Shown here one piece after another: positions 60,943-63,514 of a DNA stretch of 64,000 nt (positions are counted from its first letter, which is position 1; every line of letters begins with the position of its first letter). The DNA is from Escherichia coli (GTDB taxonomy: Bacteria; Pseudomonadota; Gammaproteobacteria; Enterobacterales; Enterobacteriaceae): NCBI RefSeq assembly GCF_003334785.1, contig NZ_QOWV01000001.1; one strand, given 5' to 3'. The notes beneath the pieces were generated by a model. It did no database searches. It was not told the origin of the DNA and was given only the letters and a program-made list of their open reading frames with translations. The position numbers were made by a program, and so were the translations under genes.

Positions 60943-61125
60943 TCATCGATCTTGTATCACTTTTTTGCCGGAAGTTGTTTGCATTTTATTAGTTGGATAG
61001 GGTTTGTGGATTTTTGCTGGCTGACGGGCAAATAAAGTTTGTTTAATGGTTTGCTTATCTGCCAGTTGATTAATCACATGGCGGGCTATCTGACCGCCAG
61101 CACCAAGAATCAGTACATTTTTCAT
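60943..61125 (-). pseudogene. ymjC: 60-codon N-terminal fragment of an NAD(P)-binding Rossmann protein (ymjC-like remnant)
   Basis: MKNVLILGAGGQIARHVINQLADKQTIKQTLFARQPAKIHKP... carries a GxGGxxA dinucleotide-binding motif but stops after 60 codons. Confidence 0.5.
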
Positions 61126-61195
61126 GAAAATTATCCCAGATTATTGGCAGCAATATGCCAGTCCATATCACTATTGCGGATTTGAATATGTTTCA

Positions 61196-62141
61196 TTACA
61201 GAGTTTCCTCAAAGAACGGAGCTAATACTGAAATTGCTTCAGCCACATAGGCTTTGCCGTCATAAAGATCCATATGGTTTGCGCCTTCAACAATGTGATA
61301 GCGTTTATCCTGGCTTGATGCTCGATCGTACAGGTCGTCACTCATCCATTTGCTCCCTGCCTGGCTGCCCGCCACAATCTGCGTCGGCTGAGTCAGGTAC
61401 ACTTCCGCCATATGGTAAGCATCATAGGTAATAATCTGGTTAAGGCTGCGCAAAGTAGCGTAACTTAAGGCTGCGCAAAGTAGCGTAACCCGGTGCTGTT
61501 GGATACTGCGCGCGAGGGGTGTGGTAATACTCCCAGGCCTGACGCAGTTCTTCGTTCGGCGCATCGGACTCCTTCATTGGTGCCAGTGGCATAATGGCGT
61601 ATTCTCCGCTGCTAATATCGCTGGTTCTGGCGTTTGAACCCGCTTCAACGTATGGCAGGGCATCAATAGATTTCACATTGTTTTCCCAACCATTACGGAA
61701 TATCGAACCAATATTGACCGCACTAACGGTACCGATGGCCTTGATGCGGCGATCCTGAATTGCAGCATTGGCTGTATATCCTGCACCGGCACAAATTCCC
61801 ATCGCACCAATTCGGGTATTGTCGACATAAGAAAGCGTTGTCAGGTAATCAATCACGGCACTGATGTCTTCAGTACGAATGTATGGGTTTTCTAACTGAC
61901 GCGGCTCGCCGCCACTTTCACCTTGATAAGATGCGTCATAAGCAATAGTGACAAATCCCTTTTCCGCCAGTTTTTTGGCATAGGTTCCGGCCGTTTGTTC
62001 TTTAACGCCCCCACCTGGGTGAGATAACACAATTGCCTGATACTGACGGGTTTCATCAAATTTTGGAGGGAAATAGATCACTGCAGACAAAGAGATGGTT
62101 GGATTATTGCTGTTAGTGAAGCTGACTTTATTATTCATCAT
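61196..62141 (-). pseudogene. ycjY: Alpha/beta-hydrolase YcjY, disrupted by a 25-bp tandem duplication (frameshift)
   Basis: Track ORFs 61440..62153 and 61196..61564 overlap across the duplication and both encode YATLRSL; removing one 25-bp copy gives a continuous ORF (306 aa from MMNNK at 62141, SD GAGGA upstream). Confidence 0.85.
61440..61489. repeat. Perfect tandem duplication, 2 x 25 bp (ttaaggctgcgcaaagtagcgtaac)
   Basis: Two identical adjacent copies at 61440-61464 and 61465-61489. Confidence 0.95.
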
Positions 62142-62278
62142 TCCGTTCCTCATGGAGTTGTCGGTTCGTTTTAACGGTTGGTGATATCACTATAGATATT
62201 GATCATTAAGTTGATTAGACCCAAAATCATGATTAGACCTATCATTTAAATGATTAATAGATTGCATGGAGATACTGA

Positions 62279-63178
62279 ATGAAGCGTGAAGAAATCGCTG
62301 ATCTGATGGCGTTTGTCGTCGTTGCAGAGGAGCGTAGCTTCACTCGTGCAGCAGCCCGCCTGAGCATGGCGCAGTCAGCTTTAAGCCAGATAGTGCGTCG
62401 TATAGAAGAACGATTGGGATTGCGGCTTCTGACGCGAACCACGCGCAGCGTTGTTCCAACTGAAGCGGGCGAGCATCTTTTGTCTGTTCTTGGCCCTATG
62501 TTGCATGACATAGATTCAGCCATGGCATCCCTGAGCGATCTGCAGAACCGCCCATCCGGGACAATACGTATTACTACTGTAGAACATGCAGCAAAAACGA
62601 TATTGTTACCAGCAATGCGCACATTCCTGAAATCGCATCCTGAAATTGATATTCAGCTCACCATTGATTATGGTTTGACCGATGTCGTTTCTGAACGTTT
62701 TGATGCAGGCGTCCGTCTGGGTGGGGAGATGGATAAAGATATGATCGCCATTCGAATCGGGCCAGATATACCAATGGCTATTGTTGGCTCACCGGATTAT
62801 TTTTCTCGCCGAAGTGTTCCAACGTCAGTGTCACAATTAATAGATCATCAGGCAATTAATTTGTATCTTCCCACATCGGGTACAGCAAATCGCTGGAGAT
62901 TAATACACGGTGGACGTGAAGTTCGTGTTCGCATGGAAGGTCAGCTTTTACTGAATACGATAGACCTGATCATTGATGCTGCAATTGATGGGCATGGATT
63001 GGCGTATCTACCTTATGATCAGGTTGAGCGGGCTATTAAAGAAAAAAAACTGATACGTGTTTTGGATAAATTCACACCAGATTTACCCGGTTATCACCTG
63101 TACTATCCACACCGTCGACATGCTGGCTCGGCATTCTCATTATTTATAGATAGGCTGAAGTATAAAGGTGCTGTTTAG
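62279..63178 (+). CDS. ycjZ: LysR-family transcriptional regulator
   Basis: 299-aa ORF MKREEIADLMAFVVVAEERSFTRAAARLSMAQSALSQIVRRIEERLGLRLL...; divergent from ycjY. Confidence 0.92.
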   Translation: MKREEIADLMAFVVVAEERSFTRAAARLSMAQSALSQIVRRIEERLGLRLLTRTTRSVVPTEAGEHLLSVLGPMLHDIDSAMASLSDLQNRPSGTIRITTVEHAAKTILLPAMRTFLKSHPEIDIQLTIDYGLTDVVSERFDAGVRLGGEMDKDMIAIRIGPDIPMAIVGSPDYFSRRSVPTSVSQLIDHQAINLYLPTSGTANRWRLIHGGREVRVRMEGQLLLNTIDLIIDAAIDGHGLAYLPYDQVERAIKEKKLIRVLDKFTPDLPGYHLYYPHRRHAGSAFSLFIDRLKYKGAV

Positions 63179-63514
63179 CACTACTTGCTGATACATTAAT
63201 TTAATTCTTCTCTTAACGTATTCTCAGTTCCTTTCAACGTTTTGGTCATTTTTTATTCTTCGTACAATGGCGACAGATGCTGATTATGATACCGAAAACG
63301 GGTTTGAACGTGCGAAGCCCGAACGTAGTGTTCGGAGTTCTATGTGCTTTACCGCATTTTGGAGACTATTATTTACACTAAATCTGATTTGATATATTGA
63401 TACTTAAAACATTTGATGCTTCCTTTGTCACTTTTTTGATGGAAGTTGTTTGCATTTCTTTAAGGCGAAACAAATAATTACGCATCAATTTTAATGTCGG
63501 TTAGAGGGAAACTT

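What the first reader, a model, noticed from the sequence alone, without database searches (positions are those of the whole stretch)
60957..63457. ~30-bp direct repeat flanking the ycjY-ycjZ module, one copy in the ymjC fragment and one upstream of mppA
tcacttttttgccggaagttgtttgcatttt (60957-60987) and tcacttttttgatggaagttgtttgcatttc (63428-63457) are 28/30 identical and lie 2.47 kb apart in direct orientation. On the minus strand both encode MQTTS(G/I)KK; copy 1 is the 3' end of the truncated Rossmann-fold ymjC remnant. Copy 2 contains a plausible -35 (TTGCAT, 17-bp spacer, AATAAT) for mppA. This suggests either a duplication or recombination scar that broke an ancestral NAD(P)-binding gene when ycjY-ycjZ was acquired or rearranged, or a shared cis element upstream of the functionally linked murein-peptide genes mpaA and mppA.
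Basis: partly seen in the sequence, partly recalled or inferred. Interest (0 to 1): 0.55.

Follow-up and report, generated by a model that had tools for sequence, protein, structure and literature searches.

The report
Duplicated insertion site around pgrR cassette
The two 30-base repeats are one piece of the original mpaA–mppA promoter region that was duplicated when a foreign gene cassette (SDR, ycjY, pgrR) landed between these two cell-wall-recycling genes in an ancestor of most E. coli; it is a real but ordinary kind of evolutionary scar.

Summary
The repeat is real: 60957-60986 and 63428-63457, 28/30 identical, direct, 2471 bp apart, none expected by chance. It is not a scar inside an ancestral gene. 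In E. albertii, E. whittamii, other Escherichia lineages, Citrobacter, Enterobacter, Klebsiella and others, and in about 3% of E. coli, mpaA and mppA are adjacent and divergent, about 182 bp apart, with ONE copy of this sequence. In most E. coli a 2.4-4.0 kb foreign cassette (NmrA-like SDR, one or two alpha/beta hydrolases, the LysR regulator pgrR/ycjZ, a possible queH remnant) sits between two copies. The duplicated segment is the native mppA -35 hexamer (TTGCAT) plus about 22 bp upstream; -35 and -10 are the best-conserved spacer blocks across about 20 genera. Copy 2 keeps the mppA promoter whole; copy 1 stays on the mpaA side. The ymjC truncation is a separate, later ~670-bp microhomology deletion (42% of E. 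coli). It starts 1-4 bp inside the insert and removed the SDR terminator; the intact SDR ends ~165 bp short of copy 1. The same four-gene cassette occurs at ~79% DNA identity on Klebsiella plasmids. How the 30-bp duplication was made is unresolved: no transposase, integrase or terminal inverted repeats. Ordinary kind, modest interest.

The parts
60957..60986 (+). Repeat copy 1 (mpaA side). Identical to the single native copy in empty-site E. coli and in Escherichia sp. MOD1-EC7003. Carries an orphan TTGCAT with no native -10 after it.
63428..63457 (+). Repeat copy 2 (mppA side). Differs from the native sequence only at positions 12-13 (CC to AT), among the least conserved columns of the core across genera.
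63450..63478 (+). Predicted mppA sigma-70 promoter: -35 TTGCAT (63450-63455), 17-nt spacer, -10 AATAAT (63473-63478). mppA ATG is at 63515.
   Evidence: Consensus match. TTTGCAT and AACAAATAAT are the most conserved spacer blocks on the mppA side across about 20 genera. No experimental start site was found.
60987..63427 (.). Inserted foreign module as it survives in this window (2441 bp): ymjC' remnant, ycjY (frameshifted here), pgrR/ycjZ, about 250 bp of non-coding tail.
   Evidence: Absent from the empty site in L002 and from 70+ outgroup loci. Colinear at about 79% identity with Klebsiella plasmid cassettes.
60988..60990 (.). Junction of the K-12-type ~670-bp deletion (ATT microhomology), 1-4 bp inside the insert. 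It removed the 3' 166 codons of the SDR, its terminator hairpin and about 165 bp of the insert's end.
   Evidence: junction; 2292 of 5426 genomes have this junction; terminator-like hairpin in the intact form.
60943..61125 (-). ymjC' ORF (60 aa): 46 codons of the NmrA-like SDR N-terminus, then 14 codons read from native spacer including copy 1 (MQTTSGKK).
   Evidence: ORF; SDR translation; intact protein matches PF13460 at model positions 1-184 of 184, E = 3e-54.
61196..62153 (-). ycjY alpha/beta hydrolase, split into two ORFs in this window by a 25-bp tandem duplication.
62279..63178 (+). pgrR (ycjZ), the LysR-type regulator that belongs to the cassette.
   Evidence: The same LysR-hydrolase arrangement is seen in Serratia and on Klebsiella plasmids.
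63276..63368 (+). Stretch that the RefSeq annotation of a related strain calls an internal queH fragment. Part of the insert's right-hand tail.
   Evidence: Annotation and translation. Not confirmed by NCBIfam.
60862..60956 (.). Native mpaA-side half of the spacer, with the conserved blocks GCAGTGTTGTGCAAA (60891-60905) and ATCAAAT.
60133..60861 (-). mpaA (murein tripeptide amidase), native left flank.
63515..64000 (+). mppA 5' part (runs off the window), native right flank.

Best explanation
The two copies are a duplication of the insertion site. Ancestrally mpaA and mppA were adjacent divergent genes separated by about 182 bp containing one copy of TCACTTTTTTGCCGGAAGTTGTTTGCATTT, which is the mppA -35 hexamer plus about 22 bp upstream of it. 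A foreign LysR-controlled cassette (NmrA-like SDR, two alpha/beta hydrolases, pgrR, plus non-coding tails) was inserted immediately after ...TTTGCATTT, and the 30-bp segment ended up on both sides of it. As a result mppA kept a complete promoter (copy 2 plus the native -10), and mpaA kept its complete native upstream region (copy 1). The cassette then decayed stepwise in E. coli. The second hydrolase was lost. A ~670-bp microhomology deletion then truncated the SDR to ymjC' and removed its terminator, which inferentially allows read-through from ycjY into mpaA. In this window a 25-bp tandem duplication also frameshifts ycjY. SHOWN: one copy in the uninterrupted site, two copies bracketing the insert, sharp repeat edges, foreign origin of the cassette, and independence of the SDR truncation. 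INFERRED: that the duplication arose at the integration event itself, by repair or recombination at a staggered or short-homology junction rather than by a transposase; that copy 2 is the working mppA -35; and that the repeats can mediate precise loss.
For: One copy, exact hybrid flanks: empty-site E. coli L002 reads mpaA flank, one core (GCC type), then the mppA flank. About 174-190 of 5419 E. coli genomes are empty. Outgroups: mpaA and mppA are adjacent at about 180-200 bp in E. albertii, E. whittamii, three other Escherichia lineages, Citrobacter, Enterobacter, Klebsiella, Kluyvera and others, each with at most one core copy at a fixed distance from mpaA. The repeat is present with the intact SDR, which ends about 165 bp away from it. 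No similarity extends beyond the core. The cassette is foreign: the same gene order at about 79% DNA identity over 3.6 kb occurs on Klebsiella plasmids, one of them conjugative, and LysR plus two hydrolases occur in Serratia, in unrelated contexts. The -35 and -10 blocks are conserved across about 20 genera. Copy 2 differs from native only at two poorly conserved positions. The deletion junction shows ATT microhomology. A terminator-like hairpin lies in the deleted segment. K-12 literature lists a ycjY-ymjDC-mpaA operon under PgrR.
Against: No mechanism known to me gives a 30-bp target duplication without a recombinase. The module has no transposase or integrase and no terminal inverted repeats. 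The CC/AT difference could equally mean that copy 2's left part arrived with the incoming DNA (att-like exchange) rather than mutating afterwards. Whether empty-site E. coli are ancestral or secondary losses is unresolved. The mppA promoter assignment rests on consensus and conservation only; the promoter scan of the region as a whole was not enriched over shuffles (7 found versus 5.7 expected).
Confidence: 0.8

Rival explanations
1. attL/attR of a site-specific or Campbell-type integration. A circular element carrying a near-identical 30-bp attP (GAT variant) recombined with the native site, with the crossover in the shared 17-bp GGAAGTTGTTTGCATTT.
For: The pattern copy 1 = GCC...t and copy 2 = GAT...c is exactly what one crossover between GCC...c (native) and GAT...t (incoming) would give, with no later mutation. 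Thirty bp is typical for att cores and far too long for known transposon target duplications (my knowledge). The module moved between Escherichia lineages as a unit bounded near the repeats. The Salmonella cdtB islet begins at the same point of the spacer.
Against: There is no integrase in any form of the module. No attP-like junction was found in metagenome or viral collections, although the control junction gave only 3 hits, so the test has little power. Klebsiella and Serratia copies carry no such sequence and no flanking repeats. L007's copy 2 is GCC/A, not the GAT/A this model predicts, and L007 has about 30 bp of coli-like sequence to the left of copy 1.
Confidence: 0.15
2. One reading: the repeat is a recombination scar that broke an ancestral NAD(P)-binding gene when ycjY-ycjZ arrived.
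For: In this window the ymjC' ORF does run into copy 1.
Against: The intact SDR (212 aa, complete PF13460 domain) exists in most E. coli with both repeat copies already in place and ends about 165 bp before copy 1. The truncation is a separate deletion found in 42% of genomes. The SDR is part of the imported cassette.
Confidence: 0.02
3. Two functionally maintained copies of a regulatory site that co-regulates mpaA and mppA.
For: The core is conserved across genera and lies upstream of both genes. Copy 1 is unchanged from native.
Against: The ancestral state is a single shared copy. The two copies have the same orientation on the chromosome but the genes diverge, so the element faces the two genes in opposite senses. 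The only strongly conserved part is the mppA -35. PgrR's reported in-vitro target is the ycjY/pgrR spacer, not this sequence.
Confidence: 0.07
4. Chance similarity of two T-rich promoter-like sequences.
For: The flanks are AT-rich, and part of the 42-nt extension is chance.
Against: 0 of 100 shuffles gave 2 matches. The empty-site genomes show the exact one-copy hybrid.
Confidence: 0.01

Closest known systems
Direct repeats (attL/attR) flanking genomic islets and integrative elements
   Same: A foreign gene block is bracketed by direct repeats of about 30 bp that equal one copy in the uninterrupted site. The duplication keeps the disrupted host function (here the mppA promoter) intact. One-copy 'empty' alleles coexist in the species.
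   Different: There is no integrase or excisionase gene, no tRNA or gene 3'-end target, and no detected circular junction. The insert is only 2.4-4.0 kb of metabolic genes plus a regulator.
Transposon target-site duplications
   Same: A duplicated host sequence with sharp edges lies directly at both ends of an insert.
   Different: Thirty bp is far longer than usual (2-15 bp, from my knowledge). There are no terminal inverted repeats and no transposase.
LysR-regulator plus divergent hydrolase/SDR operon cassettes on Klebsiella plasmids (for example pC9_001) and in the Serratia chromosome
   Same: Same gene order and orientation (LysR, then divergent ABH-ABH-SDR). About 79% DNA identity over 3.6 kb, 85-87% protein identity for the second hydrolase.
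   Different: Different neighbours, no association with mpaA/mppA, and no flanking 30-bp repeat.
K-12 annotation of ymjC/ymjD as pseudogene remnants, and of PgrR as regulator of peptidoglycan recycling (Shimada et al. 2013, cited in PMC4797297 and PMC5934670)
   Same: Same genes. The listed operon ycjY-ymjDC-mpaA matches the deletion form found here.
   Different: The papers I could read do not describe the flanking repeat, the one-copy ancestral site or the foreign origin of pgrR. The operon fusion would be confined to the 42% of genomes with the deletion.

Membership tests
Insertion-site duplication flanking horizontally acquired DNA (generic) | The uninterrupted ('empty') site exists and holds exactly one copy, with the left flank of copy 1 and the right flank of copy 2 | tested here: met
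   L002 and about 174-190 E. coli genomes; 70+ outgroup loci
Insertion-site duplication flanking horizontally acquired DNA (generic) | DNA between the copies is foreign to the locus and found elsewhere in other contexts | tested here: met
   Klebsiella plasmids and Serratia chromosome
Insertion-site duplication flanking horizontally acquired DNA (generic) | Similarity stops sharply at the repeat edges | tested here: met
   Shuffle-controlled local alignments
Transposable element with target-site duplication | Terminal inverted repeats just inside the duplication | tested here: not met
   Scores at or below the shuffle mean for L001 and L003 ends
Transposable element with target-site duplication | Transposase gene in the element | tested here: not met
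   The only annotated genes are SDR, one or two hydrolases and LysR
Integrase-mediated island (attL/attR) | Tyrosine or serine recombinase gene at one end | tested here: not met
   None in any of the three module forms
Integrase-mediated island (attL/attR) | attP junction (circular or donor form) detectable | tested here: inconclusive
   0 hits in metagenome and viral scans, but the control chromosomal junction gave only 3 hits
Sigma-70 promoter (mppA) | -35 and -10 hexamers with 16-18 nt spacing upstream of the gene | tested here: met
   TTGCAT-17-AATAAT, 36 nt upstream of the ATG
Sigma-70 promoter (mppA) | Conservation of both hexamers in orthologous spacers | tested here: met
   Alignment of 21 spacers
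Sigma-70 promoter (mppA) | Mapped transcription start | not testable with these tools
   No mapping found in the searched literature
NAD(P)H-binding NmrA-like SDR (ymjC ancestor) | Full-length PF13460 domain | tested here: met
   The intact L001 protein matches model positions 1-184 of 184, E = 3.4e-54. The window keeps only 46 of 212 codons.

The most novel reading that the evidence does not exclude
The point just 3' of the mppA -35 (...TTTGCATTT|) is a recurrent recombination hotspot or cryptic attachment site. Three events end within about 4 bp of it: the E. coli cassette junction, the K-12-type deletion endpoint and the Salmonella diarizonae cdtB islet junction. The cassette also moved between Escherichia species with joints at or near the repeats. 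An unrecognised integration route that duplicates about 30 bp of a promoter would be acting here.
Probability: 0.1. Interest if true: 0.55.

Novelty: new member of a known kind. Interest (0 to 1): 0.33.

Why it matters
It explains a small oddity of the K-12 map (ymjC', ymjD, ycjY, ycjZ between mpaA and mppA). It also changes how PgrR should be read. pgrR arrived as the regulator of a foreign hydrolase/SDR cassette that elsewhere has nothing to do with murein peptides. Its reported control of mpaA would depend on a terminator-removing deletion present in only about 42% of E. coli. That makes the 'peptidoglycan recycling regulator' role a lineage-specific by-product that can be tested directly. 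The duplication also shows how an insertion into a divergent promoter region can be tolerated, because both genes kept their full native upstream sequence.

Tried and rejected
1) Longer homology around the core: the 42-nt extension and an apparent 19-nt left extension did not beat shuffles.
2) Terminal inverted or direct repeats at the insert ends: none.
3) Flanking repeats around the Klebsiella plasmid copies or the Salmonella islet: none.
4) The core sequence in Serratia or Klebsiella loci: absent.
5) The queH remnant against NCBIfam: no hit, too short, so it remains only an annotator's call.
6) An attP-like junction in metagenome and viral contigs: none, but the control shows low power.
7) Literature for a mapped mppA promoter or a description of the repeat: nothing found. 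The Shimada 2013 PgrR paper is not held.
8) Deciding whether empty-site E. coli are ancestral or secondary. The flanks of ST648-type, KN12-1-type and the nearest module-bearing genome are about equally distant at roughly 1.6%, so this is unresolved.
9) A closer plasmid donor: the best non-Escherichia matches stay at about 79%.
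Full report
OBSERVATION. The window is the E. coli tyrR-tpx-ycjG-mpaA-ymjC'-ycjY-pgrR(ycjZ)-mppA region. They are on the same strand, 28/30 identical and 2471 bp apart. Allowing 3 mismatches there are only these two matches in 64 kb, and none appeared in 100 dinucleotide-preserving shuffles. The repeat finder stretches the pair to 42 nt at 83%. Local alignments of the sequences outside the 30-nt core score no better than shuffles on either side. The repeated unit is therefore about 30 nt (at most about 36) with sharp edges.

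WHAT THE COMPARISON SHOWS. A search of 5,426 complete E. coli genomes with the whole region found several architectures.

- L001 has an intact 212-aa 'SDR family oxidoreductase' between mpaA and ycjY.
- L003 additionally has a second alpha/beta hydrolase.
- L004 is the K-12 form, like the window.
- L002 has mpaA and mppA directly adjacent.

Reading L002 settles the anatomy. The 182-bp mpaA-mppA spacer contains one copy of the core (GCC variant). To its left is exactly the sequence found left of copy 1, and to its right exactly the sequence found right of copy 2. The two copies therefore bracket the whole SDR-(hydrolase)-ycjY-pgrR block. In L001 and L003 both copies are present while the SDR is intact, and the SDR stop codon lies about 165 bp from copy 1. 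L003's copy 1 has T7 instead of T6. The repeat is therefore not part of that gene.

WHICH STATE IS ANCESTRAL. I scanned one genome per species for MpaA with 8-kb flanks and located the neighbouring genes by tblastn. mpaA and mppA are adjacent and divergent, 180-200 bp apart, in E. albertii, E. whittamii, three further Escherichia lineages, many Citrobacter, Enterobacter, Lelliottia, Leclercia, Kluyvera, Klebsiella, Kosakonia and others. Each locus has at most one recognisable copy of the core, at a fixed distance from mpaA. The uninterrupted site is therefore ancestral, and the module is an insertion in the E. coli lineage.

Within E. coli, 174 genomes match the empty junction contiguously. 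The ycjY segment is missing from 190 of 5,426 genomes. Ranking places the number of empties between 185 and 276. Together these give roughly 3%.

WHAT THE DUPLICATED 30 BP IS. I aligned 21 native spacers. The best-conserved blocks are, on the mpaA side, GCAGTGTTGTGCAAA and ATCAAAT. On the mppA side they are TTTGCAT and, 17 nt further on, AACAAATAAT. The core is thus the mppA -35 hexamer plus about 22 nt upstream, and the insert begins 3 nt after the hexamer. Copy 2 followed by the native -10 gives TTGCAT-17-AATAAT (63450-63478), 36 nt before the mppA ATG. No mapped start site was found in the literature, and the consensus scan over the whole region is not enriched over shuffles. Copy 1 equals the native sequence. 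Copy 2 differs only at positions 12-13 (CC to AT), which fall in the least conserved stretch of the core across genera.

THE INSERT IS FOREIGN.

- The intact SDR is a full-length NAD(P)H-binding/NmrA-like protein (PF13460, E = 3e-54).
- The closest non-Escherichia relatives of the second hydrolase are in Serratia (87%) and Klebsiella (86%).
- In Serratia the chromosome carries LysR plus two hydrolases.
- On a K. variicola contig with IncFII repA and on the conjugative K. aerogenes plasmid pC9_001 the same four genes lie in the same order, with unrelated neighbours.
- DNA identity to the E. coli module is about 79% and colinear over 3.6 kb, from the pgrR stop to about 70 bp past the SDR stop.
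- The outer roughly 110 bp (left) and 250 bp (right) of the E. coli insert have no counterpart there.
- The right tail contains a stretch that RefSeq annotates as a queH fragment, which I could not confirm.
- None of these other contexts has the 30-bp sequence or flanking repeats.

THE ymjC TRUNCATION IS A SEPARATE EVENT. Comparing the window with L001 and L003, the window reads gcatttt|ATTagttgg. The intact forms read gcatttt(c/t)ATTgatg... on the left and ...cttgctATTagtggg on the right. This is a ~670-bp deletion between two ATT triplets that begins 1-4 bp inside the insert. It leaves 46 SDR codons fused to 14 codons of native spacer, which is why the ymjC' ORF ends in MQTTSGKKVIQDR. The deletion junction is present contiguously in 2,292 of 5,426 genomes. 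The second hydrolase is full-length in 1,272 genomes.

The likely order of decay is four genes, then loss of the second hydrolase, then the SDR deletion. In this window a 25-bp exact tandem duplication (61440-61489) also frameshifts ycjY. Of the 12 genomes listed, three carry that duplication as one contiguous match.

The deleted segment contains a terminator-like hairpin 20 nt after the SDR stop: an 11-bp stem followed by UUUAUU, MFE z = -2.7. K-12 literature lists a ycjY-ymjDC-mpaA operon in the PgrR regulon, with the PgrR SELEX site in the ycjY/ycjZ spacer. That co-transcription depends on the deletion is my inference.

MOBILITY OF THE MODULE. In Escherichia sp. E1V33 (L007) the flanking genes are 85-87% identical to the window, as in other non-coli Escherichia, but the module is 97-99% identical and carries the K-12-type junction. 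The module was therefore exchanged between lineages long after they split. The coli-like tract starts about 30 bp left of copy 1 and stops at the left edge of copy 2, which is of the recipient's own type (GCC, A at position 21).

Within E. coli the empties are not one clone. ST648-type and KN12-1-type genomes have the ordinary E. coli spacer. Eight genomes (6EVA type) have ordinary E. coli coding flanks but a strongly divergent ~100-bp mpaA-side spacer and a variant core, as if a short foreign one-copy allele had replaced the module. Whether the ST648-type empties are retained ancestral alleles or precise losses by recombination across the 17 identical bases cannot be decided. Both routes predict the observed GCC...c copy.

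MECHANISM OF THE DUPLICATION. This is the weak point. The module has no transposase or integrase and no terminal inverted repeats. From my own knowledge, 30 bp is far beyond usual transposon target duplications but typical of att cores. A single crossover between a native GCC...c site and an incoming GAT...t site would give exactly the two observed copies without any later mutation, so a Campbell-type origin remains possible. Against it, L007's copy 2 is not what that model predicts. No attP-like junction exists in the metagenome or viral collections, but the ordinary chromosomal junction was found only 3 times in the same metagenome collection, so that null carries little weight. I favour duplication of host sequence during illegitimate or short-homology integration, followed by two substitutions at unconstrained positions. 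I hold this loosely.

A POSSIBLE HOTSPOT. In S. enterica subsp. arizonae and diarizonae the same spacer holds a ~3.1-3.4 kb islet whose middle gene is CdtB (NF011787, E = 1e-113). In diarizonae the mpaA-side blocks and the core are retained (split by about 55 bp), and the foreign DNA begins right after GCATTT. That is within a base or two of the E. coli junction. There is no duplication, and the native mppA -35/-10 blocks are lost. Together with the K-12-type deletion endpoint, three rearrangement ends fall within about 4 bp. This may reflect selection to keep the mpaA upstream region intact, or a real hotspot.

VERDICT. The feature is a new example of a well-known kind, a duplicated insertion site around a horizontally acquired cassette. 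Its main value is the light it throws on pgrR and the K-12 pseudogenes.

Noticed in passing
window 61440-61489: Exact 25-bp tandem duplication (TTAAGGCTGCGCAAAGTAGCGTAAC x2) inside ycjY that splits the gene into two ORFs. Among the 12 genomes listed, three (ML35, FORC 064, O157:H16 98-3133) match it contiguously; strain MFDS1001074 matches the whole region at 100%. Most genomes appear to lack it.
   Followed up: partly
L025 4848-8000 and L027 4562-8000: Salmonella enterica subsp. arizonae and diarizonae carry a ~3.1-3.4 kb three-ORF islet with a CdtB gene (NF011787, E = 1e-113) in the mpaA-mppA spacer. In L027 the junction lies right after GCATTT of the core. There is no flanking duplication, and the native mppA -35/-10 blocks are absent.
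   Followed up: partly
L027, about 100-180 nt upstream of mpaA (reverse-complement orientation): The core itself is split in S. diarizonae by an extra ~55 bp (tatcaactttctgccgga[...]gttattgcattt). S. arizonae (L025) has a deletion spanning this stretch.
   Followed up: no
L089 3170-3290 (strain 6EVA; 8 genomes in all): Empty-site E. coli with ordinary coding flanks (4 mismatches in 1228 nt to a B1-type strain) but a highly divergent ~100-bp mpaA-side spacer and the core TCACTTTTTTACCGTAAGTTGTTTGCATTT. Looks like a short imported patch from an unidentified species.
   Followed up: partly
L007 5373-8001: Escherichia sp. E1V33 carries the K-12-type module at 97-99% identity inside flanks that are only 85-87% identical to E. 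coli, indicating interspecies transfer of the module. The right joint coincides with the left edge of copy 2.
   Followed up: partly
window 60987-60990: The left end of the K-12-type 670-bp deletion lies 1-4 bp from the insert/repeat boundary. By chance this would be roughly a 2-3% event if endpoints were uniform over the ~165-bp non-coding end of the insert.
   Followed up: partly
window 58530-58564: Perfect 16-bp inverted repeat with a 3-nt loop (AATATGCCTGATGGTG cac CACCATCAGGCATATT) between the convergent ends of tyrR and tpx. Probably a bidirectional terminator.
   Followed up: no
window 61010-60983 (minus strand): Promoter-like match TCCACA-16-TAAAAT created across the deletion junction, with its -10 overlapping the right edge of copy 1 and pointing toward mpaA. 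Consensus match only.
   Followed up: no
window 63276-63368 / L003 5215-5307: RefSeq annotates an internal queH (epoxyqueuosine reductase) fragment in the insert's right tail (peptide [25 protein letters not shown]). NCBIfam gave no hit, so it is unconfirmed. If real it is a clue to the donor.
   Followed up: partly
NZ_CP106929.1 (hit H1): The only record listed at 100% identity to the window over 60100-63900 carries an IS4-family insertion within this stretch.
   Followed up: no
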